Shown here: positions 1 through 15,444 of the stretch, piece by piece
Layout of the letters: every line of letters starts with the position of its first letter
How positions within the stretch are numbered: the first letter of the stretch is position 1
Origin: Octopus sinensis
Lineage: Eukaryota
Reading direction: 5' to 3'
DNA: 15,486 bases
Assembly (NCBI RefSeq): GCF_006345805.1
Contig: NW_021825452.1
Span: 1 to 15,486 of the forward strand
Notes under the pieces: model-generated
The model's input: only the letters and a program-made list of their open reading frames with translations
Told to the model about the DNA's origin: nothing
Database searches by the model: none
Made by a program: the position numbers and the translations under genes

Positions 1-860
1 GGTGCTTTTTAATGTGCCACCGGCACAGAAGCCAGTCGAGGTGGCGCTGGCAACGGCCACGTTCGGATGGTGCTTTTTATGTGCCACCGGCACAGAAGCC
101 AGTCGAGGTGGCGCTGGCAACGGCCACGTTCGGATGGTGCTTTTTATGTGCCACCGGCACAGAAGCCAGTCGAGGTGGCGCTGGCAACGGCCACGTTCGG
201 ATGGTGCTTTTTATGTGCCACCGGCACAGAAGCCAGTCGAGGTGGCGCTGGCAACGGCCACGTTCGGATGGTGCTTTTTATGTGCCAGGCCCACCGGCAC
301 AGAAGCCAGTTGAGGTGCGCTGGCAACGGCCACGTTCGGATGGGGCTTTTTATTATGTGCCACCGGCATGGAAGCCAGCCAAGGTGGCGCTGGCATCGGC
401 CACGTTCGGATGGTGCTTTTATTTTTATGTGCCACCGCCGCACAGAAGCCAGTCGAGGTTGGCGCTGGCAACGGCCACGTTCGGATGGTGCTTTTTATTT
501 GCCCATGGCCACCTGCACAGAAGCCAGTCGAGTGGCGCTGGCAACGGCCACGTTCGGATGGTGCTTTTTATTGTGCCACCGCACAGAAGCCAGTCGAGGT
601 GGCGCTGGCAACGGCCACGTTCGGATTGTGCTTTTTATGTGCCACCGCACAGAAGCCAGTCGAGGTGGCGCTGGCAACGGCCACGTTCGGATGGTGCTTT
701 TTATGTGCCAACCGGCACAGAAGAGACCAGTCGGGGGCGCTGGCAACGGCCACGTTCGATGGTGCTTTTTATGTGCCACCGGCACAGAAGCCAGTCGAGA
801 GGTGGCGCTGGCAACGGCCACGTTCGGATGGTGCTTTTTATGTGCCAGTGGCCACGGCAC
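1..860 (-). repeat. Tandem array of a 67-bp GC-rich unit (about 12.5 copies visible) in the RTE 3' UTR
   Basis: Unit (+) ggtgctttttatgtgccaccggcacagaagccagtcgaggtggcgctggcaacggccacgttcggat starts at 1, 69, 136, 203, 270, 342, 412, 487, 560, 627, 693, 761 and 830. Confidence 0.97.
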
Positions 861-985
861 AGGTATCACAACTACTATTTCCATTGATATTTGGTTTGAT
901 GTTCATGTACATGCACTTGACACAACAGGTCTCCTCAAGCACAGCGAGATGTTCCGGGATCCAAGGTACTTTGAATGGGCAGGGG

Positions 986-3720
986 CTATGCAGAACTGGT
1001 GCCGGAAGCATCCCGGGTCTTTGCAGTCACAGCACATCTCCAGAGATCTCGGTCCTTCGCCATTGCCTCAGTGAGGCCCAACGTCATCCCATGTCTTCCT
1101 GGGTCTACCTCTCCCCCTGATTCCTTCAACTGTTTGGGAGCGGCACTTCTTCACACATCTCTCCTCATCCATCCGCAGCACATGACCATACCATCGCAAG
1201 TGTCACTCTTGCACACCACATCTGATGCTTCTTATGTCCAGCATTTCTCTCAGGGTGCTTACACTCTGTCGTGCATGCACACTGACATTACACATCCAGC
1301 GGATCATGCTAGCTTCATTTCTTTCAAGTCTACGCATGTCCTCTGCAGTCACGGCCCATGTTTCACTACCGTGAAGCATGGCAGTTCGCACACATGCATC
1401 ATACAATCTACCTTTCACTCTGAGTGAGAGACCCTTTGTCGCCAGTAGGGGTAGGAACTTTCTAAACTTTGCTCAGGCTATTCGTATTCTAGTGGTGACA
1501 CTCTCTGAGCATCCACCTCCACTACTAACTTGGTCACCCAGGTAGCGGAAACTATCAACTACTTCTAGTTTCTCCCCCTGGAGTGTGATGGAATCTGTTT
1601 TCTGAGTATTTGTGGTGTCTATTGTCCCTGTGCATCTGCCGCACATGAAAGCTATCTTATCAGTTAATTTCCCTTTGATGTTGCTGCACCTCTTATGCGT
1701 CCATAGCTTACACTGGGTGCATCTTATGGAGTTCCTACCTACACCTTTCCTACAGATCGAGCAAGGCCACCTGCCCGATGGGGTGTGTGCTGAGTTCGCC
1801 TTTCTGCTTACTATAACTTTGGTCTTCGCTACATTTACTCTAAGGCCCTTTGATTCTAACCCTTGTTTCCACACCCGAAATTTCTTTTCTAGTTCTGGTA
1901 GTGATTCTGCTATGAGAGCCAGGTCATCAGCACAGAGGAGCTCCCAGGGGCAACCTGTTTTGAATTCCTCTGTTATTGCCTGGAGGACTATGATGAATAA
2001 AGGGGACTGAGGGCTGAGCCTTGGTGTACACCTACTTCTACCCAGAATTCTTCACTATATTCGTTGCCAATCCTAACCTTGCTGATAGCCTCTCTGTATA
2101 GGGCCTGTACAGCCCTTATTAGCCATTCGTCAATCTCCAGTTTCTGCATCGACCATCAGATAAGGGATCGGGGGACCCTGCAAAAGGCTTTCTCCAAGTC
2201 CACAAAAGCTATGTAGAGGGGTTTATCTTTAGCTAGGTACTTCTCCTGCAGTTGTCGGACCAGGAATATAGCATCAGTGGTGCTTCTACCTGGCACAAAA
2301 CCGAACTGCATCTCATGTAAGCAAATTCTCTCCCTAATGAGATGGGTTATGACCCTCTCTGTGACCTTCATCACCTGATCCAACAGTTTAATACCCCTGT
2401 AGTTATTTCTATCTAGAGCATCACCCTTACCCTTGTAGCAGTTGACTATGGTGCTGCTCCGCCAGTCATTGGGTATGACTCCATTATGAACTACCTGGTT
2501 TACAATATGGGTGACTAGGCCATAGCCCACATAACCAGCTGTTTTAAGCATTTCAGCAGTGATACCTGATGGGCCGGGGGCTTTACCTGGTTTCATACAC
2601 TTAATTGCCTTAACTACAAGGGAGCTGTCTATTTGGATAGCTGGTCCCTCTACTGGGTCAACATTTGGCAGGCTCTCCTCCTCCCATTCATTCTCCACAT
2701 TCAGCAGTCTTTCCTAATGGCTTCTCCAAGCCTCTTTCTTTTCACTAACATTAAAAGCAAGTGCCCCATCATCCATGCGGACACATTTCTCTCCTGTAAC
2801 ATCACTATTTTCTCTCACACACTGTCTAGCAATCCGAAATACCTCAGTTCTTTGGTCCTCACGTCGCTGGACATTGGCAAACTTCTTCTTTTCTGCTATA
2901 TCTTTGGCTATGTATACCTGCCGCCCGGCCTCCCTTTTGGCTACTTGGTACAGTTCCCTGCTACCCCCATCCCTCCAGGCTCTCCAGGCCTGTTTCTTTG
3001 CACTAATGGCTTTGTCTACTGCACTATTCCACCACCACGCAACTCTAGGTCTGGAAGGGACTTTGCACCATCCACAGACTTGGTCTGTGGCACTCAGCAA
3101 ATTGTCCCGTAGGAATTTCCAGCCACCTTCTATGTCCGACGTCCGTAGCTCCTCCTCCCTCTCATCAAATTTCTTGATGAGGATGTCCCTAAATCTCTGA
3201 CCATGTGAAGGGTTCTTTAGCTTCCAAATCCTTCTTTTCTGGATGGTCTGTTTCTTGGAGTCCTTCTGGCCTCAAGCCTAAAGTCACTAATGATTAGCCT
3301 ATGCTGAGGGATACATTCTTCACCCGGGAGGGTCTTTGTATTTAAGAGCGACCCTGCATCCCGCTGTCTGGTGAGGATGAAGTCTATTTGGCTAGCGGAG
3401 TCTCCTGACTGATAAGTTATAAGGTGGCAGTCAGGCTTCCTGAAGTTAGTGTTGCAGATTAAAAGGTTACATGCATCACAGAATTCCAGTAGTCTAGTTC
3501 CCTCATCATTTCTGGTGCCAATACCATGGCCACCGTGTACCCCAGTGAAGATACCCGATTCCCGCCGAACATGCCCATTAAAGTCTCCACCCACAAAGAT
3601 GAGGTCCTTGCCACTAGTCTTTGAGGTAGCCTGTAGAAGGGTATCATAAAAGTGGTCCTTCTGATCATTTGGTAGCCCCGCATGTGGGGCATAGGCGGAG
3701 ATAATCGTAGCTGTGCCACG
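986..3720 (-). pseudogene. Disrupted RTE ORF: AP-endonuclease + reverse transcriptase + PHD-like finger + C-terminal domain
   Basis: EN motifs: IISAYAP, GDFNGHV, SQIDFIL, QHRLIISDF. RT motifs: KAPGPSGI, NYRGIKLL, QFGFVPGRSTTDAIF, FVDLEKAF, GVHQGS.LSP, ELLCADDL (YADD changed to CADD, about 1922-1945), FRYLG. C-terminus: LHGSETW, LRWYGHVLRM, RGRGRPRKTW, DRDLWR, stop at 986-988. In-frame stops at about 2714, 2156, 1473 and 1203; frameshifts or deletions near 3235, 2010 and 1085. Confidence 0.93.
1632..1763 (-). other. C4HC3 PHD-type zinc finger coding segment inside the RTE RT region
   Basis: CSIC-x10-CTQC-x4(KLWT)-H-x2-C-x14-CGRC, lying between LRVNVAKTKV and LEVVDSFRYLG. Confidence 0.8.
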
Positions 3721-3909: not shown

Positions 3910-4119
3910 CGCCATGTTGATTCGTTAGTTACTGCACGCATTTTTTTCTCTCCTTCTTTCTGTGTTTTTTTTCTCTCTGTGTATCTTTCTGTTGAAGAGC
4001 GTAGGCTCGAAACGTTAAAGACTTGTTTTATTTATATTTCCTGAGCGCCATACTAATACAATTGTTTGTTTGTTTCCTACCTGCCTTCGTCTTTTGTCTA
4101 TTTTCATAAAGCTTCCCGT

Positions 4120-4120
<1 letters not shown>
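3910..4120 (+). mobile_element. Probable Penelope-like element terminal (pLTR) fragment
   Basis: Contains a minimal hammerhead-like motif at 3984-4021, has T-rich flanks and sits between two (TA)n runs. Confidence 0.5.
3984..4021 (+). ncRNA. Minimal type-I hammerhead ribozyme-like motif (variant core)
   Basis: UCUUU-CUGUUGA-A-GAGC(GUAG)GCUC-GAAA-CG-UU-AAAGA: stem I UCUUU/AAAGA, stem II GAGC/GCUC, palindromic stem III. The core has U where canonical A6 is expected. Confidence 0.55.
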
Positions 4121-4155
<35 letters not shown>

Positions 4156-4243
4156 ATATATATATAATATATATATATATACATATATATGTGTGTGTGT
4201 GTGTATATGTTTGTGTATCTGTGTTTGTCCCCCAACATTGCTT
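4121..4243 (+). repeat. (TA)n(TG)n microsatellite plus a short internal fragment of SINE family A
   Basis: gtgtttgtcccccaacattgctt matches the post-microsatellite part of the SINE at about 11046-11070. Confidence 0.65.
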
Positions 4244-4791
4244 TACTCTGACTATGGCAGTTTTCAAAGAATCTTTGGTGTTATGGATATGTTCATTGAC
4301 CTCTCTCTCAACAACGCTCCACATGTAATAGTCCAATGGATTGAGATCTGGAGAATTAGGAGGCCAAATGTTAGGGGTTATGTGATCAGGAAAATTTTCA
4401 GCCATCCATTCCTGTGTTACTAGAGCCATGTCTGATAGTGCACAGTCTTACTGAAACACATATGGCCTTCCATTGCATACACTGTCTATCCAGGGCTTAA
4501 CAATTGTTTCCAGGACCCCAATGTAGGCAGCAGAGTTAACTCTAAGGCCTTGTGGAAATAAGTAAGGAGGCATCACATGTCCTTCATTGCTGACAACCCT
4601 TAAAACCATGACAGTTACAGGAAACTCTGTATGCACAACACTTGGGACTTCAGAAGGGTCTGCATATAACCATCGGTCATTTCTTCTGTTGACTTTTTGA
4701 TCTTGGTTGAAGTTTTTCTCGTCTGAGTAAATCCAAATCAAATCTTCTTCTGTTGGATTTTTCAGTTTGTTTAAGAGCCTTTTAGATCTGA

Positions 4792-5164
4792 CTAGCAGTA
4801 TCGCCCAGCGTTGCTTGGGTTTGTAAGGGAAATAACTATATAAGCATTTTTAGAGAGTTATAGCCAAAAAATAGCAAAAAAATGCATTAAAAATGGAAAA
4901 AAAATTATGGTAATTTTTTTAAAAAATCCTTGACTCTTCGTAGACATTTTTAGAGAGTTACTTCCCTTATATAATAGCGAAAAAATTGCATTAAAATGGA
5001 AAAAAATGATGGTAAATTTCTTTTTAAATCGTAGACTCATCATAGACGCGCACTAATACCCAGGAAGGCTCGATATGAATCACGACTGCACCGCAAAATG
5101 TGGGAGTAGTTAGGAATCTAAATCGTAGGACACAGACACACAACTTGACTTTTATATATAAAGA
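4792..5164 (-). mobile_element. Non-autonomous Helitron
   Basis: Minus strand starts TC(TTTATATATAAAAG) and ends with hairpin CCCAAGCAACGCTGGG followed by CGATACTG-CTAG. Inserted between host A and T with no TSD; removing it restores the transposase frame. Confidence 0.88.
4845..5046. repeat. Two diverged ~100-bp tandem copies inside the Helitron
   Basis: catttttagagagtta...aatagc.aaaaaa.tgcattaaaa.tggaaaaaaa.t.atggtaa.tt...gactc.tc.tagac occurs twice. Confidence 0.85.
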
Positions 5165-5312
5165 TATCATGATTTTCTTTTGCTTTTTCTGACAAATTAA
5201 CCTTTTTCTCTTCATATAAGACTTATATCTGATGTCTTTGTGGATAATATTTCTGTCTGTTCCTTCTGACACATGGAGGTCTTCTGCAAACTTCTTACCA
5301 CATGGCCATACG

Positions 5313-5480
5313 CATGTGTGTGTGTGTGTGTGTGTGTATATGTATATTTGTATATGTATGTGTGTGTGTGTCTGTGCATGGGTCTATGTGTATGTATCAT
5401 TAAGTCTGTGTGTGTACCCACGGGGCAGTGCATTTGTCTGAATCTGTATGTGTTTGTCATTCTGTGTGTGTGTGTGTTGG
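5313..5480. repeat. Degenerate (TG)n/(TATG)n microsatellite
   Basis: Direct reading of the sequence. Confidence 0.85.
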
Positions 5481-5557
5481 TCTTCATTATGTTAAGGTGT
5501 ATCCCTTTGGGGGTCGATGCATTTGTCTCTGAATCCGTTAGTCTATATTTGTCTATA

Positions 5558-5585
5558 CGATGATGATGATGATGTTGATGACAAC

Positions 5586-5619
<34 letters not shown>

Positions 5620-5670
5620 TTGATGATGATGATGATGATGATGATGTTGATGACAACGATGATGATGATG
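5558..5670. repeat. (GAT)n microsatellite
   Basis: Direct reading; recurring gttgatgacaacgat interruption. Confidence 0.95.
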
Positions 5671-5977
5671 CTGTTTAAATGGATGAATATGTTATGTGTC
5701 TATCTTTGTATCTGTGGTTCAATGTGTCTCTGCATCCGTGTGCACATCTGTGTGTGTGTGTGGTGTGTGTGTGTATTTGATCCCATGGCTGTGTCTGTGC
5801 GTTTAAGTGTGTATTTGTTGTTTAAATACCATCTTGACTTTAAACTTTTGAAATTCAAATACTTTTAAAAAATTATTTGTTTTGCTGTGAGTGGAAGTGG
5901 GGTGGGGGGTGGCGGGGTTTTTTTCTTCTTTGTTTATTTTTTCTGTTTATTTTTTTGACTTCATTGCTTTCAGTCTG

Positions 5978-6494
5978 TCATCATCATCATCATCATTGTT
6001 ATCCTCCTCCTCCTCAAAATCATTATCGTAATCATCATCACCATCATCATCATTATTGCTGTCATCCTCCTCCTCCTCCTCATTGTTGCCATCCTTGTCA
6101 TCTTCCTCATCCTCATCATTGCCATCTTCATTGTTGTTATTGTCATCATCATCATCATCCTCATCCTTGTTGTTATCACCATCACCGTCTTCCTCATCAC
6201 CATCTTCCTCTTCTTCCTCACCATCACCCTCCTCCTCCTCTCTTCCTCTTCTTCCTCACCATCACCCTCCTCCTCCTCTCTTCCTCATCTTCCTCCTCCT
6301 CCTCCCTCTCGTCTTTCTCTCTCTTCCTCCTCCTTCACCTCCTCCTCCCTTTCATCTTTCTCTTCCTCCCCTCCTCTTCTTCCTCACCACCACCCTCCTC
6401 CTCCTCTCTTCCTCATCTTCCTCCTCCCCCTCGTCTTTCTCCTCCTCCTCATCTTCTTCCTCACCATCACCCTCCTCCTCTTCCTCCTCATCTT

Positions 6495-6528
<34 letters not shown>

Positions 6529-6560
6529 TTCCTCCTCCTCCTCCTCATCTCCCCCCCATC
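5978..6560. repeat. (CAT)n grading into a (CCT/CTT)n pyrimidine-rich tract with internal duplications
   Basis: Direct reading; tcttcctcaccatcaccctcctcctc recurs at about 6210, 6250, 6378 and 6455. Confidence 0.9.
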
Positions 6561-6561
6561 T

Positions 6562-6702
6562 TCTACCAAATCCACTCACAAGCCTTTGGTCGGCCCGAGG
6601 CTATAGTAGAAGACACTTGCCTAAGGTGCCAATACAGTGGGACTGAACCCGGAACCATGTGGTTGGTATGCAAGCTACTTACCACACAGCCATTCTTGTG
6701 CC
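6562..6702 (-). mobile_element. tRNA-derived SINE family A, 5' half
   Basis: Reverse complement of the head at 10850-10980: A box TGGCTGTGTGG, B box GGTTCAGTCCC, then GGCAAGTGTCTT. Confidence 0.9.
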
Positions 6703-6710
6703 TATATGAA

Positions 6711-7027
6711 GGCACGTAGCTAAGTAGTTGAGTATTTGGCTTATGATCACAAGGTCATGAGTTCAATTCTTGGTGATGTGTTGCGTCCTTGAGCAAGACA
6801 CTTTATTCCACATTGCTCCAGTACACTCGGCTAGCAAAAATTAGTTCTACCTATAATTCAAAAGGCCAGCCTTGTTGCATTCCGTGTCACGTCTAATCTG
6901 GCCGAGAACTACGATAAGCGTGTGCAAGTCTGTGGGGTACTCAGCCACTTGAAATTTAATTACACGAGCAGGCTGTTCTGTTGATCAGATCATCTTGATC
7001 ACTCAGCATTGTAATCAATGGAGAGCC
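6711..7027 (+). mobile_element. tRNA-derived SINE family B, near full length and diverged
   Basis: A-box-like TAGCTAAGTAG, B box GAGTTCAATTC (6759-6769), CORE-like GTCCTTGAGCAAGACACTT. Its 3' part is repeated at 7038-7160. Confidence 0.8.
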
Positions 7028-7037
7028 TGGCCTTAGC

Positions 7038-7160
7038 CTGAGAATTATGTTAAGATCTTCATACATCTGTGGAGTACTCAGCCACCTGTACAATAATTTA
7101 ATGAGTTGGTGGTTCAGTGGATCAGACCAATGAATGGTCAATGCTGTCACCAACCAATGA
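7038..7160 (+). mobile_element. Second, 5'-truncated copy of the SINE family B 3' tail
   Basis: gagaa.ta.g.taag...tctgtgg.gtactcagccac.tg...taatt...gag...gttc.gt.gatcaga aligns with 6902-6995. Confidence 0.7.
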
Positions 7161-7238
7161 TTCATCATTAGGGGTGGGCTACCTATAACCCAGTTCCCTG
7201 GTGGGGGTCAGTGATAATGGCAGCTCTGCTTGCTGATG

Positions 7239-7609
7239 GTTTGTTTGTTTGTTGAGCGGTCTTCGTCCCTGTGGGAGAAGTCCGAAATGTGGTCCTTTGC
7301 TATTTGTAAGACCTGCAGAAGAGAAAGCAGGTCAACCCCCGACACCAAGAGCATCGACGGATGGTTGAATGCTCATCCAGGCTCAGCGGTTGCATAGGAA
7401 GTCGGGGGACAAGAAACAGGAAGAAAGAGTGGGAGAAAGTTGGAGCGAAAAAGTACAACAGGGGTCGCCACCACCCCCTCAGCAGGAGCCTCGTGGAATT
7501 TTAGGTGTTTTCGCTCAATAAACACACACAACGCCCAGTCTGGGAACCGAAACTGCGATCCTCTGACTGCGAGTCCGCTGCCCTAACCACTGGGCCATTG
7601 CGCCTCCAC
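7239..7609 (-). mobile_element. tRNA-derived SINE family D, full length with (AAAC)n tail
   Basis: Minus strand: GGAGGCGCAA-TGGCCCAGTGG (A box)-TTAGGGCAGCGGACTCGC...AGTTTCGGTTCCC (degenerate B box); ends CTCAACAAACAAACAAAC. Confidence 0.8.
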
Positions 7610-7614
7610 TCTTG

Positions 7615-8088
7615 CTGATGGTGATGATGGTGGCAGGGTGGGTAGTGATGAGGAGGTGGGTGGTTGGCATGGTAGTGGTAGAGGGTGTTGAGGATGCAGT
7701 AGTAGCAGCAGTAGTGGAGATGTTATGAGGATGAAGGGGATGAGAAGTAAGAGGAGGGGATTGATTGGGGTGGTGGTGGTGGTGAAGGTAGAGGAGGTGT
7801 CATGGTAGCAGCAGGGACAACAGTAGTAGCAGTTGTAGTGGTGGAAGCAGTGGTGGTGGTTGTCATGGTATGGATGAGGATGAAGAGGATGGGAAAGAAG
7901 AAGAGGGGAATGACTGGTGTGGTGGTGATGGTGGTGGTGATGGGAGTAGAGGGGGGTCGTGGTAGCAGTAAAATTGGGACTAGCAGCATCAGGGGTGGCA
8001 GTAGTAGCAGTGGTGGAGACAACAGTGTAGTGGTGGCAATGGTGGTTGTGAGGATGGAGAATGATGATGATTCCGAGGAGGAGGAGAA
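7615..8088. repeat. Degenerate (GGT/GAT/AGT/GAG)n trinucleotide low-complexity tract
   Basis: Direct reading of the sequence. Confidence 0.85.
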
Positions 8089-8179
8089 TGCCCATCTCGT
8101 CAGGCCCACCACTACAGAAATTACCATCCATTTTAACACTGTAAACTCAATCCCTCATGGAATGAGACAAACGATAAAG

Positions 8180-8190
8180 CACACACACAC

Positions 8191-8232
<42 letters not shown>

Positions 8233-9232
8233 AAAAACATACACACACATACACACACATAAACATAATCACATGCACACACACAGACACATGCACACAC
8301 ACATACCTGCACAACATACATGCACACACACGCACACATACAGATACACATACACATGCACACACACACATACACACACACACGCATATAGACACACAGA
8401 CACACACACACATACACATACACATGCACACACATACACACACACGCATATAGACACACAGACACACACACATACAGATACACATGCACACACATACACA
8501 CACGCGCATATAGACACAGACACACACACATACAGATACACATGCACACACATACACACACACGCATATAGACACACAGACACACACACATACAGATACA
8601 CATGCACACACATACACACACACGCATATAGACACACAGACACACACACACATACAGATACACATGCACACACATACACACACACGCATATAGACACACA
8701 GACACACACACATACAGATACACATGCACACACATACACACACACGCATATAGACACACAGACACACACACATACAGATACACATGCACACACATACACA
8801 CACACGCATATAGACACAGACACAACACATACAGATACACATGCACACACATACACACACACACGCATAGACACACAGACACACACACATACAGATACAC
8901 ATGCACACACATACACACACGCGCATATAGACACACAGACACACACACATACAGATACACATGCACAACATACACACACACGCATATAGACACACAGACA
9001 CAACACATACAGATACACATGCACACACACATACACACACACGCATATAGACACACAGACACACACACATACAGATACACATGCACACACATACACACAC
9101 ACGCATATAGACACACAGACACACACACATACAGATACACATGCACACACATACACACACGCGCATATAGACACACAGACACATACAGATACACACACAC
9201 ACACACACATAGACACACAGACACAGACACAC
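8180..9232. repeat. (CA)n microsatellite with a higher-order ~60-bp minisatellite (about 14 copies, ~8330-9200)
   Basis: Unit cacacacacatacagatacacatgcacacacatacacacacacgcatatagacacacaga; 8521-8580 and 8581-8640 are identical. Confidence 0.95.
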
Positions 9233-9322
9233 GCAAAGGAGCACATGTTAAGACTGTCTCTTCAGGTGATCTGAGAAATGATACAAATGATGATGTTAAA
9301 TGTTAAACTTAGAGCTCAGAAG

Positions 9323-9323
9323 C

Positions 9324-9357
<34 letters not shown>

Positions 9358-10150
9358 TCATCGTCTTTGTTGTTGTTGTTCTCGCCATTGTTGTCTTCCT
9401 CTTCCTCTTCCTCCTCCTCATCATCGCCATGATCATGATGACCACCACCACCACCACCACCATCATCATTATTATCATCATCGTTATCGTCGTCATTGTT
9501 GTTGTTGCTGTCATCCTCCTTCTCATCACATCATCACTGCCACCACCAACACCACCACCACCACCACCATCATCACCACCATCATCACCACCACCACCAC
9601 CACCATCATCACCACCACCCACCGCCACCACCACCACCATCATCACCACCACCACCACCACCATCATCACCACCACCACCACCACCATCATCACCACCAC
9701 CACCACCACCACCACCACCACCACCACCATCACCACCACCACCACCATCATCACCACCACCACCACCACCATCATCACCACCACCATCACTGCCACCACC
9801 AACACCACCACCACCACCACCATCATCATTATTATCATCATCGTTATCGTCGTCATTGTTGTTGCTGTTATCCTCCTTCTGATTACATCATCACTGCCAT
9901 AACCATCACTGCCACCACCAACACCGCCATCACCACCACCACCACCACTGCCATTATCATCAAGGTCGTCATCATCTTGGAGGCCTCCTTCTATTCATCA
10001 ACACACCCCACTACCATCACCAACACCAACACCTCTACCATTATCATCAAGGTTGTCATTATTGTCATCGCCACCACCTCCACTACCATCATCATCATCA
10101 TCATAGTCCTCCTTCTCATCATCACCATCACCACCATCATCACCATCCTT
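9323..10150. repeat. (CAC/CAT)n trinucleotide tract containing a ~90-bp direct duplication
   Basis: catcatcattattatcatcatcgttatcgtcgtcattgttgttg...atcctccttct...acatcatcactgcca at about 9461-9540 and 9821-9899. Confidence 0.92.
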
Positions 10151-10244
10151 TCTCTTCAGTTCCATCTGTTGATTGTTTCAATTGACATATTCTTAAATCC
10201 TCCTCCACCACACAACAGTTCATTGTTCAATGACCTTTTAATCT

Positions 10245-10770
10245 AACCATCCAAACCAGCCAACCAGACAACCAGCCAGCCAACCAACCAACCAGCCAGT
10301 CAGTGATTCAGCCAGCCAGCCAGCTAGCAGTTCAGCCAACCGGCCACTCCTTCAGCCATTCCATTGGACCATGTATCCAGTCAGCCACCCAACCACCTAG
10401 TTAACCAACAAACTGGCCAACCAGCCAGACAACTATCCATCCATCCATCCATCCAAATCTTCAGTCATCCATCAAACCAGTCTTCAATCCATTAATCCGA
10501 TCCATCCATCCATCCATCCATCCATCAATCCATCCATCCATCCATCCATCCATCCATCCATCCATCATCAATCCATCCGTCCATCCATCCATCCATCCAT
10601 CCATCATCAATCCATCCGTCCATCCATCCACCCACCCATCCATCCATCCATCCATCCAAATCTTCAGTGATCCATCAAACCAGTCTTCAATCCATTAATC
10701 TGATCCATCCGTCCAACCATCCATCCATCCCAGCCAGCCACCCAGCCAGATACCCCCAGATACCCAACCA
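10245..10770. repeat. (CCAG/CCAA)n and (CCAT)n tetranucleotide tract with a ~60-bp direct duplication
   Basis: ccaaatcttcagt.atccatcaaaccagtcttcaatccattaatc.gatcc at about 10453 and 10656. Confidence 0.9.
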
Positions 10771-10849
10771 CCTATTCATCTATTTAGCTATGGTCTCTAA
10801 TAGATCAATCATCTCGCTCATATAGCTGTTCATAAATAAATAACAAACT

Positions 10850-11011
10850 GCAGGAGTGGCTGTGTGGTAAGTAGTTTGCTAACCATGGTTCCGGGTTCAG
10901 TCCCACTGCGTGGCATCTTGGGCAAGTGTCTTCTGCTATAGCCTCGGGCCAACCAAAGCCTTGTGAGTGGATTTGGTAGACGGAAACTGAAAGAAGCCTG
11001 TCGTATATACG

Positions 11012-11050
<39 letters not shown>

Positions 11051-11251
11051 TTGTCCCCCTAGCATTGCTTGACAACCGATGCTGGTGTGTTTACGTCCCC
11101 GTCACTTAGCGGTTCGGCAAAAGAGACCGATAGAATAAGTACTGGGCTTACAAAGAATAAGTCCCAGGGTCGATTTGCTCAACTAAAGGCGGTGCTCCAG
11201 CATGGCCGCAGTCAAATGACTGAAACAAGAAAAAGGGAGAAAGAGAGTAAA
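10850..11251 (+). mobile_element. tRNA-derived SINE family A, full length, with internal (TA)n(TG)n
   Basis: A box TGGCTGTGTGG 10857-10867, B box GGTTCAGTCCC 10894-10904, CORE-like TTGGGCAAGT, 3' hairpin CAGTCAAATGACTG and a purine-rich tail. Several homologous copies occur in the window. Confidence 0.92.
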
Positions 11252-11340
11252 TGAAGGGCACCAAAGATACACTAAGGCTTTCTCTGCTGCTGCTACTACT
11301 ACTACTACTACTACTACACATATATATGTATATTTTTCGC

Positions 11341-11742
11341 TTTCTCTTTTACTTGTTTCAGTCATTTGACTGTGGCCAAGCTGGAGCGCCACCTTTTAGT
11401 CGAGCAAATCGACCCCAGGACTTGTTCTTTGGAAGCCTAGTACTTATTCTATCGGTCTCTTTTGCCGAACCGCTAGGTACGGGGACGTAAACACGCACCA
11501 TCGGTTGTCAAGTGATGTTGGGTGGGGGGGACAAACACAGACACACAAACATATACACACACATATATATACATATATGCGATGGGCTTCTTTCAGTTTC
11601 CGTCTACCAAATCCACTCACAAGGCTTTGGTCGATTCGAGGCTATAGTAGAAGACACTTGCCCAAGGCGCCACACAGTGGGACTGAACCCGGAACCATGT
11701 AGTTGGTAAGCAAGCTACTTACCACACAGCCACTCCAATGCC
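11341..11742 (-). mobile_element. tRNA-derived SINE family A, full length, inverted relative to 10850-11251
   Basis: Reverse-complement match along the whole length. Confidence 0.92.
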
Positions 11743-11761
11743 TATATGTTGGTATTATATA

Positions 11762-11975
11762 TTCTTTTATTCCTTTACTTGTTTCAGTCATTTGACTGTG
11801 ACCATGCTGGAGCACGGCCTTTAGTCGAGCAAATCGACCCCTTACAAAGGACTTATTCTTCGTAAGCTTATTACTTATTCTACTGGTCCCTTTTGTTGAA
11901 CCGCTAAGTTATGGGGATGCAGACATACACCAACATCGGTTGTCAAGCGATATTGGGGTGGGGGGACAAACACAC
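11762..11975 (-). mobile_element. SINE family A, 3' half
   Basis: Direct repeat of 11341-11540. Confidence 0.9.
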
Positions 11976-12000
11976 ATATATATAATATATATATATATAT

Positions 12001-12146
12001 GTGGTAAGTAGCTTGCTTACCAACCATATGGTTCCAGGTTCAGTCTCACTGCGTGGTACCTTGGGCAAGTGTCTTCTACTATAGCCCCAGGCTGACCAAA
12101 GCCTTGTGAGTGGATTTGGTAGATGAAAACTGAAAGAAGCCCGTCG
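12001..12146 (+). mobile_element. SINE family A, 5' half (A box clipped)
   Basis: Direct repeat of 10864-11003. Confidence 0.9.
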
Positions 12147-12218
12147 TATATATGTATATATATATATATATATATAAATATAGGGTTTTTATAGAGGTTT
12201 TTCTCTAAATTATATACA

Positions 12219-12450
12219 GGGCGGTGAGCTGGCAGAAACATTAGCATACCGGGAGAAATGTGTAGCTGTATTTCGTCTGCCGTTACGTTCTGAGTTCAAA
12301 TTCCGCTGAGGTCGACTTTACCTTTCATCCTTTCAGGGTCAATAAATTAAGTACCAGTTACACACTGGGGTTGATGTAATCGACTTAATCCGTTTGTCTG
12401 TCCTTGTTTGTCCCCTCTGTGTTTGGCCCCTTGTAGGTAGTAAAGAAATA
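12219..12450 (+). mobile_element. tRNA-derived SINE family C, full length
   Basis: GGCGGTGAGCTGGCAGAA head, B box GAGTTCAAATTCC 12292-12304, central GAGGTCGACTTT.CCTTTCATCCTTTC domain. A second copy lies at 13222-13320. Confidence 0.85.
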
Positions 12451-12575
12451 TATATATATGTATATTTTATATTGTGAAATTTGATTTAAAATTGTTAAAT
12501 TGAATTTTTCCCTGTAAGTTTTGGAATTATATTCCCTACTATTATTATTATATATATATGTATATATATATATAT

Positions 12576-13150
12576 GCTGTGCGTGAGAAGACCCGGCAGG
12601 ACTAGTGAGACCATAACCCGTGGCCTCTACCTGGGATGTAGCCAGTTGACTTATGTATACCTTTCCTTCTTGGGACACAAAACTCCACTTGTGAAGACCC
12701 GTTGAGGCAAGTGAAAATCAGAGCCAAAATCGAAGTCGATCAACATCAATGGAAATTGCAGCTGTGATACCAGTGCCGGTGGCACGTAAGCGAACGATCC
12801 GATCGTGGCCGTTGCCAGCGCCGCCCCGACTGGCCTCCGTGCCGGTGGCACGTAAAAAGCACCATCTGATCGTAGCCGTTGCCAGCCTCGCCTGGCCCCC
12901 GTGCCGGTGACACGTAAATAGCACCATCCGATCGTGGATGTTTGCCAGCCCACGTCTGGCACCTGTGCCAGTGGAATGTAAAAAGCACCCACTACACTCA
13001 CGGAGTGGTTGGCGTTAGGAAGGGCATCCAGCTGTAGAAACACTGCCAGATCAGACTGGGCCTGGTGCAGCCTTCTGGCTTCCCAGACCTCCAGTTGAAC
13101 CGTCCAACCCATGCTAGCATGGAAAGCGGACGCTAAATGATGATGATGAT
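12576..13150 (+). mobile_element. Severely 5'-truncated RTE LINE of a related subfamily: last ORF codons, 3' UTR with ~3.4 repeat units, terminal stem-loop and (TGA)n tail
   Basis: Starts AVREKTRQD* (compare AVTAKTR in the first copy). atcaatggaaattgcagctgtgatacc matches the reverse complement of 862-889. Units at 12773-12989; ends taaatgatgatgatgat. Confidence 0.88.
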
Positions 13151-13221
13151 ATAAAATAATAATGAAATTATTGTATACAGTGCTCAGGTGCACCACAACA
13201 TAATTAAATAATCTGTACATG

Positions 13222-13320
13222 AAAGTCGACCTCGGCGAAATTTGAACTCAAGACTTAGAGAAGCACGAAATACCGATAAGCAGCTCACCCGGCGTGCTAA
13301 CGTTTTTGCCAGCTCTCCGC
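13222..13320 (-). mobile_element. SINE family C, 5' fragment
   Basis: Minus strand GCGGAGAGCTGGCAAAAACGTTAGCACGCCGGG...TGAGTTCAAATTTCGCCGAGGTCGACTTT aligns to 12221-12319. Confidence 0.85.
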
Positions 13321-13353
<33 letters not shown>

Positions 13354-13354
<1 letters not shown>

Positions 13355-13655
13355 TTTTTTCTTCCTGAAGAGAAAGACACAATATGGTCCCATTATTCAA
13401 TCGGATTTTGGTAATTTGTGCCTTCGAAACACGTGTAGAATGAAATAAAACGATTTCTGTTCAATCTGCGTTCGGCTCCATTTCTTCATTCACCAATAAT
13501 GTTTTAATTTCAATTATCCGCACCAACGCACGGTTGCAACGCCAGATGGTTGTACCTCCAACCGTGCTGTTTACTGCTGTGATTTTTGCTACTAAGGTAT
13601 CGGTTAAACTTTTGATTAATCTACTACAAGATTATTCATCTTTCTATTTCACATA
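13354..13655 (+). mobile_element. Probable Penelope-like element terminal repeat fragment
   Basis: Hammerhead plus polyA signal in a ~300-bp island bounded by (TA)n on both sides. Confidence 0.5.
13357..13445 (+). ncRNA. Type-I hammerhead ribozyme with an intact core (Penelope-like element type)
   Basis: CUGAAGA 13365-13371; stem II GAAAGACACAA/UUGUGCCUUC; GAAA 13426-13429; palindromic stem III ACACGUGU; GUA cleavage triplet 13435-13437; stem I UUC/GAA; AATAAA at 13444-13449. Confidence 0.75.
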
Positions 13656-13713
13656 ATATATATATATATATATTATATATTATATATATATATACATATA
13701 TATATGTATATCT

Positions 13714-13770
13714 GTAAGATCGTGAGGTTGTGAGTTTGATTCCCAGACCGGGCTGCATGTTGTGACTGCT
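13714..13770 (+). mobile_element. Short tRNA-head fragment of a SINE related to families B/D
   Basis: gatcgtgaggttgtgagtttgattcccagaccgggc resembles the T-arm/B-box regions at 6746-6775 and the reverse complement of 7532-7565. Confidence 0.5.
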
Positions 13771-13924
13771 GGTCTTCCACAAACAAATTAGCCGAGTTTG
13801 GCTTCTTGTTTAGCAAAATAGATAAAAGTTGGATAAGGGAGTCTACAAAAATAGCCAACGAATAATGAACATTTATATACATATATATATATATTTTATT
13901 AAAAAATAAAACAATCTGTATAAT

Positions 13925-14075
13925 GGTTGTTGTTGTTGCTGCTGCCGTTGCTGCTGTTGTTGTTTTGTTGTTGCTGTTGTTGCTGCTGCTGCTGCTGTTC
14001 TTTTTCTTGTACTCAGTGTTGTTACTATTCGTGTTGTTGTTGCTGCAGTTGCTGCTGTTGTTGTTGTTGTTTGTG

Positions 14076-14106
<31 letters not shown>

Positions 14107-14280
14107 TTTGTGGTTGCTGCTGCTGTTGTTGTTGTTGCTGCTGTTGTTGTTTGTGGTTGCTGCTGCAGTTGCTGTTGTTGTTGTTGCTGCTGCTGTTCGT
14201 GTTTGTTGTTGCTGCTGTTGTTGTTGCTATAGTTACAGTTTTTGCTATTGTTTGTTGTTGTTTGTAGCAGCTTCTGTTGT
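13925..14280. repeat. (GTT/GCT)n trinucleotide tract
   Basis: Direct reading of the sequence. Confidence 0.92.
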
Positions 14281-14361
14281 CATGGTTGCATTTACTTCCA
14301 ATCAAAAAATTAAAACATCATATTTTTTTTAAAATCTAAAATATTTATTTCACTTCTGTGA

Positions 14362-14576
14362 TAGAGAGAGAGAGAGACAATGATCATAATGATGATGATG
14401 ATGATGATGGTGATGAGGTAGATGTTGGGGTCGGGGGATGATGATGATAATAACACTGATGAAGAGGGTAACATTGATGATGATGATGATGTTGATGAAG
14501 ACGATGACAATCATGATGACAATGATGATAACGATGGTGATGATGATGATAATGATGTTGGTGATGATGATGATGT
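14362..14576. repeat. (GA)n followed by degenerate (GAT)n
   Basis: Direct reading of the sequence. Confidence 0.88.
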
Positions 14577-14868
14577 TTACTGACATACTCCACAAAACCA
14601 CAATAATTTCAGGGAAAAAAAAAACTTCCCAAAAAAACATACTTCAAAAGCATGAGTAAAAATATTTAAAAGTTTTTTTTTTTAAATATTGTAAAGAAAA
14701 AAACATAAAAAGGAAAAGATAGAAATTATAATAATAATAATAATAATAAAAACAAGATTTCCAGCACAAAAAACACCAAAATAAAAAAGTAGTAAAATGG
14801 AAGAACATAAAAAAAAAAGTGGTGATACGAAAGACTTGGGTTACACAATCATAATTCCAGGTCAGAAA

Positions 14869-14937
14869 ATTCTTCTTCTTCTTCTTCTTCCTTCTTCCTT
14901 CTTCTTCCTCTTCCTCCTCCTCTTCTTCTTCTTCTTC

Positions 14938-14986
<49 letters not shown>

Positions 14987-15008
14987 CTCTTCTTCTTCTT
15001 CTTCTTCT
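14869..15008. repeat. (CTT)n microsatellite
   Basis: Direct reading of the sequence. Confidence 0.95.
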
Positions 15009-15132
15009 CATGTATACTATATATATATATATATCTTTATATTTATATCAGTAGAAAATTATAAAAGTTCTTCCTTTTATTTCTTGTTTTTCTTCTTCTT
15101 CTAAGATAGAGAGAGAAAGAAAGAGTGTCTAC

Positions 15133-15145
15133 GTGTGTGTGTGTA

Positions 15146-15193
<48 letters not shown>

Positions 15194-15252
15194 TATACAC
15201 ACATGCATGTATGTACATATATTCAATATATAAATATATATACATATATAAG

Positions 15253-15324
<72 letters not shown>

Positions 15325-15407
15325 AGTATACACACATGTATGTATGTACATATATTCAATATATAAAATATATACATATATAAGTATATATTATGTGTGT
15401 GTGTGTG

Positions 15408-15444
<37 letters not shown>
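15133..15444. repeat. Compound (TG)n(TA)n array with a ~135-bp higher-order duplication
   Basis: taagtatacacacatg.atgtatgtacatatattcaatatataaa occurs at about 15190 and 15323. Confidence 0.9.

What the first reader, a model, noticed from the sequence alone, without database searches (positions are those of the whole stretch)
1..860. RTE 3' UTR built from an expandable array of 67-nt units that each can fold as two tandem H-type pseudoknots
Seen: on the element's sense (minus) strand each unit reads AUCCGAAC-[GUGGC-CGUU-GCCAG-C-GCCAC-CUCGA-CUGGC]-UUC-[UGUGC-C-GGUG-GCACA-UAAAAAG-CACC]. Both bracketed parts have H-type geometry. PK1 has S1 GUGGC/GCCAC and S2 GCCAG/CUGGC. PK2 has a 5-bp S1, 1-nt L1, 4-bp S2 and a 7-nt A-rich L3, like compact luteoviral pseudoknots. 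The related copy at 12773-12989 shows a compensatory U-A to C-G change in PK2 S1 (CGUGC/GCACG, 12838-12863) and a U-A to U-G change in PK1 S1. Inference: this may be a structured RNA module multiplied inside a retrotransposon transcript (nuclease block, RT or protein loading, or self-processing) rather than an inert satellite. I know of no description of it. Folding was done by eye and the covariation rests on few units.
Basis: partly seen in the sequence, partly recalled or inferred. Interest (0 to 1): 0.8.

Follow-up and report, generated by a model that had tools for sequence, protein, structure and literature searches.

The report
Pseudoknot repeat in octopus LINE tail
A jumping gene in this likely-octopus genome repeats a short RNA segment in its tail that is predicted to fold into a tiny knot, which related jumping genes carry once near their start, so the knot likely helps the RNA get copied into the genome.

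Summary
The 67-nt array is real and lies in the 3' UTR of a young, very abundant RTE-type LINE. Only 3 of the 12 window units match the quoted text exactly, and most genomic copies hold 1-5 units. The two claimed pseudoknots fare differently. PK2 is a 25-26-nt motif with about 64,000 exact core hits. Other LINE families carry it in the same spacing, mostly in their 5' UTR about 40 nt before the start codon. Across families stem 1 shows two double-sided changes and loop 1 is the variable site. Stem 2 stays complementary but only through G-C to G-U changes, and genome-wide counts found no compensatory stem-2 lineage. PK1 can form in this unit type, but its stem 1 is lost in 102 of 114 terminal units. 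Best reading: a likely 5'-UTR pseudoknot module moved to the 3' UTR, where it probably serves RNA stabilisation or RT loading. It was duplicated by slippage and stretched into long arrays by DNA-level expansion that ignores structure. No known ribozyme family matches. Function is untested.

The parts
1..829 (-). 12 tandem units (66-75 nt, modal 67) of hairpin/PK1 segment + PK2; cut by the contig start
69..94 (-). PK2 in an exact unit: stem 1 UGUGC/GCACA, loop 1 one nt, stem 2 GGUG/CACC, A-rich loop 3; the conserved motif
98..127 (-). PK1 segment of the same unit: GCCAG/CUGGC hairpin; the extra stem GUGGC/GCCAC exists only in some unit types
830..861 (-). first, partial unit: a lone PK2 disrupted by a short insertion
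   Evidence: intact at this position in other copies
862..985 (-). unique 3' UTR spacer between the stop codon and the array
986..3715 (-). 5'-truncated, broken single ORF of an RTE-type LINE (endonuclease, RT with internal PHD finger); stop at 986-988
   Evidence: full-length relatives
12577..12772 (+). ORF end and 3' UTR spacer of a 5'-truncated copy of a sister subfamily
12773..12989 (+). 3.4-unit array of the sister copy; PK2 at 12838-12863
13008..13047 (+). PK3: a further predicted H-type knot in the constant tail after the array, shared with LINE UTRs in other samples
13100..13151 (+). terminal stem-loop and (ATG)n tail of the element

Best explanation
The array is a tandem repeat in the 3' UTR of a likely RTE-clade LINE, and its conserved core is a 25-26-nt motif predicted to fold as one compact pseudoknot (PK2), which likely moved there from a LINE 5' UTR and likely acts as a docking and stabilising site that helps the RNA get loaded with the element's reverse transcriptase. 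Shown: position, copy number, the same motif in 5' UTRs of other LINE families and in ORF-less elements, and stem-1 covariation between families. Inferred: stem-2 pairing, the move from 5' to 3' together with PK3, and the function. The docking role is argued from ORF-less elements keeping the motif and from its apparent tolerance of position; my odds for that step alone are about 0.35. Copy gain is inferred to run in two stages. RT would pause and slip back at the knot in source elements, giving 2-5 units. Unequal DNA exchange after insertion would then give the rare long arrays. PK1 is an optional fold of one unit type; its kept part is a hairpin.
For: 63,920 exact hits of the 20-nt core against 0 for the reversed pattern. 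A register-shifted older form has 1,631 hits and PK2-only 26-nt units. Other families in the same genome hold the motif with stem 1 GUGA/UCAC or GAGA/UCUC (329 hits). With both stem-2 strands free, 98 of the first 100 of 228 hits keep the variable stem-1 pair (my hand count; one lineage split counted many times). A start-codon context follows 38-49 nt downstream in 14 of 25 such loci, 10 with an intact ATG. Metagenome locus L154 has PK2+PK3 just before an endonuclease ORF 44-53% identical to this family's. In L181 a twister-P1 match (E 4.4e-07, below the gathering score) abuts PK3. L149/L182 and L205 carry PK2 with no ORF of 90 aa or more found (L149) or none visible before the tail (L182, L205). 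In 35 haplotypes stem 1 has 3 double-sided pairs, and the extra pair of the rival hairpin breaks in 7 of 35. Loop 1 is the most variable column: C216, T113, A53, G15 of 397. With the stem-2 3' strand free, 290 of 323 instances keep all 4 pairs. Base 11 pairs with base 5 or base 22 in 314 of 323. Stack energies are -9.9 and -7.9 kcal/mol against -7.8 for the hairpin. 49 of 67 non-simple tandem repeats in 162 3' regions contain PK2.
Against: No double-sided change in the four core stem-2 pairs. Partner double mutants were 26 per 1,096 single mutants against 20 per 1,059 for a non-partner control. The U-A pair was compensated in 1 of the first 100 of 698 hits. G-C to G-U changes are common transitions. 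The 35-row alignment was selected with stem 2 constrained, so its 100% stem-2 pairing is by construction; it holds 35 of 104 haplotypes. Only 3 of 56 metagenome upstream regions held a strict knot, against a shuffle mean of 0.65, and 1 of 20 shuffles reached 3. The outer stem-1 pair is unpaired in 13 of 35. Nested folding of one unit is no better than shuffles (z -0.44). There are no data on expression, probing or function. Slippage during reverse transcription was not observed.
Confidence: 0.5

Rival explanations
1. Only stem 1 forms. PK2 is a short hairpin followed by a conserved single-stranded A-run and CACC, read as sequence by a protein.
For: All double-sided changes in the core are in stem 1. 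No compensatory stem-2 lineage was found. The hairpin is the best nested fold, at -8.0 kcal/mol.
Against: Family-level stem-2 changes are all G-C to G-U, the spacing is fixed across families, and the junction pair is C-G in the older family and U-A in the 5' families. Loop-1 variants A and G break the sixth hairpin pair.
Confidence: 0.2
2. The knots are a translation enhancer. They recruit ribosomes from the 5' UTR of uncapped, ribozyme-cut RNA, and in this lineage act from the 3' UTR in place of a poly(A) tail, with more copies giving more protein.
For: Position about 40 nt before the start codon in other families. A twister lies next to PK3 in L181, and cleaved twister-led RTE RNA is translated (PMC8501958, passages). 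The element ends in (ATG)n, not poly(A). TMV's three consecutive 3' knots act in translation (PMC4683447, passages).
Against: ORF-less elements keep the motif. No ribozyme was found in 6 5' regions of this family. Long arrays decay.
Confidence: 0.17
3. The array is a neutral minisatellite. The motif is inherited sequence, or a DNA-level factor-binding site, and the knot geometry comes from repeated GGC/GCC words.
For: The family is young (97-99% identity). Long arrays copy stem-breaking variants: PK1 intact in 13 of 30 and PK2 in 22 of 30 units in L026. Stem-2 mutants occur at background level. RTEs are known to spread simple repeats (PMC2887409, abstract). Kojima suggests factor binding for conserved RTE 5' sequence.
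Against: Two double-sided stem-1 changes between distant families. Geometry in 0 of 2000 shuffles. Wobble changes fit the RNA sense strand only.
Confidence: 0.1
4. The units self-cleave and release 67-nt or circular RNAs, as in ribozyme-bearing retroelements.
For: Tandem structure; twister and hammerhead matches occur in metagenome loci that hold PK3.
Against: No ribozyme family matches the window at E up to 5. Unit length and content vary from about 20 to 167 nt. Cleavage inside the 3' UTR would separate the ORF from the tail needed for insertion (inference).
Confidence: 0.03

Closest known systems
[quoted passage not shown]
   Same: A LINE 5'-UTR module kept by SINEs and ORF-less elements, also seen in an R4 and an Ingi element. 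In L149 the PK2 homologue ends a similar domain; 6 of 25 octopus 5' loci have that domain upstream. By eye the domain's 3' end has the same CUAG lead-in, a GAG/CUC to GGG/CCC double change, GG...CC and an A-run.
   Different: The word pseudoknot is absent from that paper's main text. The exact PK2 and PK3 motifs were not found in its supplement. Homology is by resemblance only. Here the motif is in the 3' UTR and repeated.
RTE-2_OV of Octopus vulgaris (PMC9115989, section 6 read)
   Same: RTE with a repeat that makes up most of its 3' UTR.
   Different: Reported as 1109 aa with a C2H2 finger and a repeat starting at the ORF end. This family has an internal PHD finger, a ~125-nt spacer and a longer 5' UTR. 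Its sequence was not found in 4 of 8 supplements searched, so identity could not be tested.
TMV upstream pseudoknot domain (PMC4683447, passages)
   Same: Consecutive small pseudoknots in a 3' UTR, upstream of a structured terminal replication signal.
   Different: Viral and experimentally probed. No sequence relation was tested or is claimed; function here is untested.
Twister / HDV-like ribozymes at RTE 5' ends (PMC8501958, passages; Ruminski 2011 not held)
   Same: Structured RNA in RTE UTRs; a twister sits next to PK3 in L181.
   Different: PK1 and PK2 match no ribozyme model and lie in the 3' UTR.
Compact luteoviral frameshift pseudoknots (recalled, no call)
   Same: Very short loop 1, short stem 2, A-rich loop 3.
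   Different: No slippery site or overlapping ORF is involved; resemblance of geometry only.

Membership tests
RTE-clade LINE | single ORF with AP endonuclease then RT, no ORF1 | tested here: met
   Pfam; 788-aa open frame; no ATG-started ORF over 60 aa upstream of the ORF start in one flank; ~1,050-aa relatives
RTE-clade LINE | short tandem-repeat 3' tail instead of poly(A) | tested here: met
   (ATG)n after a stem-loop in the copies read
RTE-clade LINE | RT phylogeny inside the RTE clade | not tested
   no named reference proteins among the 120 listed hits; the clade label rests on architecture and recalled motifs
H-type pseudoknot (PK2) | stem 1 supported by covariation | tested here: met
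   two double-sided core pairs between families
H-type pseudoknot (PK2) | stem 2 supported by covariation | tested here: inconclusive
   only G-C/G-U changes plus one double-sided junction pair; no excess of compensatory mutants
H-type pseudoknot (PK2) | both stems form at once in RNA | not testable with these tools
   needs probing or a structure
H-type pseudoknot (PK1) | stem 1 kept across the family | tested here: not met
   4 bp or more in 169 of 320 internal and 12 of 114 terminal segments
Known self-cleaving ribozymes (Rfam) | match to a twister, HDV-like, hammerhead or other model | tested here: not met
   none in the window at E up to 5; none in 14 loci at E up to 0.05
Kojima RTE 5'-UTR / Ceph domain | sequence homology to the domain | tested here: inconclusive
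   positional and by-eye resemblance; exact motifs absent from the supplement
TMV-like 3' translation enhancer | raises translation of non-polyadenylated RNA | not testable with these tools
   needs a reporter assay

The most novel reading that the evidence does not exclude
Compact pseudoknots with an A-rich loop are the hidden functional unit of LINE UTRs and of the unexplained conserved SINE bodies (RTE-5'/Ceph, Meta/Deu). They are position-independent modules that tether the RNA to the ribosome or the RT. This octopus lineage moved one to its 3' end and tunes its mobility by copy number, which would turn every 5'-truncated copy into a SINE-like substrate.
Probability: 0.2. Interest if true: 0.85.

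Novelty: new variant of a known kind. Interest (0 to 1): 0.55.

Why it matters
Why RTE 5'-UTR fragments and SINE central domains stay conserved is an open question (PMC4824008 passages and PMC5786205 say so). A 25-nt motif with natural compensatory variants, found in 5' UTRs, 3' UTRs and ORF-less elements, gives a small break-and-restore test of that question. The family is also young and very abundant in an animal group where LINE activity in the brain is debated. Ten searches of the held library listed no paper describing this knot or array. Subscription papers and Repbase entries were not searchable.

Tried and rejected
Rfam on the window gave only simple-repeat noise. Nested folding cannot model knots and was neutral; no pseudoknot folder was available. 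An apparent excess of compensated stem-2 mutants among the first 100 hits vanished in exact counts. PK2 and PK3 were not found in the 5' UTR of this family in 6 of 6 flanks. Viral collections gave nothing. Nine prokaryote-bin hits of PK3 look like animal repeat contamination (inference). Sequencing runs: no RNA holder listed on record; four contig sets hold the family but say nothing on expression, strand or RNA ends. No earlier scan findings. Ruminski 2011 was not held. Overlapping loci, the L056 satellite and the 20 loci selected for a stem-2 double mutant were dropped from some counts. Most loci were chosen by similarity to a motif; only the 40 arbitrary 10-kb stretches are unbiased. Unsearched supplements of PMC9115989 (4 files) and PMC4824008 (1 file) may bear on identity and novelty.

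Full report
Observation. Tandem Repeats Finder gives an array at 1-847 with period 67 and 12.3 copies, and a related one at 12773-12989. The window is the start of contig C1923 of a 2.72-Gb genome, so the array is cut off. That the animal is an octopus is my inference from genome size and repeats. On the minus strand the array follows, by about 125 nt, the stop codon at 986-988 of a broken frame with endonuclease, RT and PHD matches. Of 12 units, 3 match the quoted text, 7 keep PK1 and 4 keep PK2 with exact spacing. Both geometries are real: two separate Watson-Crick knots of at least 9 bp arose in 0 of 2000 shuffles, and one in 60.

The element. The best 40 genomic matches to the endonuclease region are 97-100% identical, so the family is young. 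Relatives of about 1,050 aa with the same domains are widespread, with 1,632 hits among 8,000 scored. Arrays are followed by a constant tail of about 160 nt ending in a stem-loop and (ATG)n. The 20-nt PK2 core has 63,920 exact hits against 0 for the reversed pattern. Copy number per element is usually small. In 40 arbitrary stretches, 34 of 35 motif-bearing elements had 1-4 copies and one had 7; 18 further tail matches had none. In 14 copies chosen by their endonuclease, counts were 2-5 except one 0 and one 7. The second window copy is a 5'-truncated end of a sister subfamily.

PK1. Among 434 segments from 99 loci, stem 1 of at least 4 bp is possible in 169 of 320 internal and 12 of 114 terminal segments; lineages with a 6-nt loop lack it. 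The GCCAG/CUGGC hairpin is kept, but the search required it. Stack energies (-11.8 and -10.9 against -8.0 for the best nested fold) allow PK1 in the window's unit type. It is therefore an optional fold with no covariation support.

PK2, evidence for. Within the family loop 1 is the most variable column, and its A and G forms break the sixth pair of the rival hairpin (7 of 35 haplotypes). An older family shifts one pair from stem 1 to stem 2 and repeats PK2 alone in 26-nt units. A pattern taken from metagenome homologues found 329 hits in other families of the same genome. With stem 2 left free, the first 100 of 228 hits were 79 GUGA/UCAC, 19 GAGA/UCUC and 2 mixed (hand count). Against the window's GUGC/GCAC these are two double-sided changes in an ungapped register. 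Stem 2 keeps all four pairs in 290 of 323 instances with its 3' strand free, and base 11 pairs with base 5 or base 22 in 314 of 323. The 11-22 pair is C-G in the older family and U-A in the 5' families. A structure-only scan gave 403 hits in 1.18 Mb of held loci, many of them chosen for the motif, against 3 in reversed sequence.

PK2, evidence against. Stem 2 shows no double-sided core change. One pair was compensated in 1 of the first 100 of 698 mutants. For another, double mutants were 26 per 1,096 against 20 per 1,059 for a non-partner control. The 35-row alignment had stem 2 constrained when it was chosen. Only 3 of 56 metagenome upstream regions held a strict knot, with a shuffle mean of 0.65. 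Stem 2 is therefore likely but unproven.

Origin. In the other octopus families the motif precedes a start-codon context by 38-49 nt in 14 of 25 loci. Their proteins show RT and restriction-like motifs, which I read as Dong/R4-like from recalled motifs, without a tree. The constant tail holds a further predicted knot, PK3. A scan with it gave 68 metagenome loci; the free strand of its stem 1 pairs in 58 of 60 distinct cases and an A-run follows in 52. In L154, PK2 and PK3 lie just before an endonuclease ORF 44-53% identical to this family's. In L181 a twister match abuts PK3. L149, L182 and L205 look ORF-less. This family's own 5' UTR lacks both motifs in 6 of 6 flanks. The simplest history is capture of a 5'-UTR module plus tail as the 3' UTR, in the way Kojima describes for bipartite RTE derivatives. 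This is inference.

Expansion. Of 162 3' regions, 67 hold a non-simple tandem repeat and 49 of these contain PK2, with periods from 20 to 167 nt. Most of the other 18 are a degenerate satellite, decayed units or flanking repeats. Repeated gain around one motif fits RT pausing and slip-back, which I did not observe. Long arrays repeat blocks of variant units, with PK1 intact in 13 of 30 and PK2 in 22 of 30 units in L026. That fits DNA-level expansion blind to structure.

Mechanism and verdict. I favour a cis-acting knot that stabilises the RNA and docks it for RT loading, because ORF-less elements keep it and it appears at either end of LINE RNAs. A translation-enhancer role like TMV's upstream knots and a plain hairpin are the main rivals. 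Self-cleavage is unlikely. Expression could not be judged. Repeats in RTE 3' ends and a conserved RTE 5' domain are published; a structure for this motif and its relocation were not listed in ten searches of the held library. Papers seen: PMC5786205 (three of five main-text parts, passages, one supplement part), PMC9115989 (section 6, passages, 4 of 8 supplements searched), PMC13282606, PMC4683447, PMC8501958 and PMC4824008 (passages; the last also 2 supplement files searched), PMC2887409 (abstract). Verdict: new variant of a known kind, interest 0.55.

Noticed in passing
window 13008-13047 (+); L146-L213: PK3, a predicted H-type knot in LINE UTRs from many metagenome samples: stem 1 free strand paired in 58 of 60, stem-2-like GC(C/T) in 41 of 60 against 7-11 for controls. 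No Rfam family matches it.
   Followed up: partly
PMC5786205 supplement part 13; PMC4824008 supplement file 2: By eye, the 3' end of the RTE-5'/Ceph domain and a segment of the bivalve Meta/Deu SINE body both fit compact H-type knots with an A-rich loop and show double-sided stem-1 changes. Few sequences, not counted.
   Followed up: no
L264, L267, L154: LINE 5' regions with two PK2-like copies about 170-300 nt apart; in L264 the two copies differ by a compensated stem-1 pair.
   Followed up: partly
L056:2400-3500: A 99-nt satellite made of a decayed PK2, a hairpin and PK3.
   Followed up: partly
window 10860-11200 (+), 11380-11720 (-), 11990-12175 (+), 6560-6720 (-): Copies of an abundant SINE-like repeat (tRNA-head and CORE resemblance recalled, not tested). 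Its 3' part in L017 and L057 also scored as a compact knot.
   Followed up: no
window 12221-12460 and 13222-13320: A second short repeat family, present as an inverted pair around the sister RTE copy.
   Followed up: no
window 4028-4849 (-): Broken frames resembling a Tc1/mariner transposase (recalled motif); one of them scanned gave no Pfam hit.
   Followed up: no
L181:718-795 (-); L182:42-221 (-): A twister-P1 match in an RTE-like 5' region, and two hammerhead HH9 matches in a flank, all below gathering scores.
   Followed up: partly
L234-L242: Nine loci in prokaryote genome bins carry the PK3 motif, several with LINE-like tails; likely eukaryotic contamination.
   Followed up: no
L215, about 1.1-1.9 kb upstream of the endonuclease anchor: Tandem duplication of the first ~450 nt of this family's 5' UTR in one copy.
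   Followed up: no
window 4119-15444: Dense micro- and minisatellites, including a 60-nt CA-rich array at 8179-9219.
   Followed up: no
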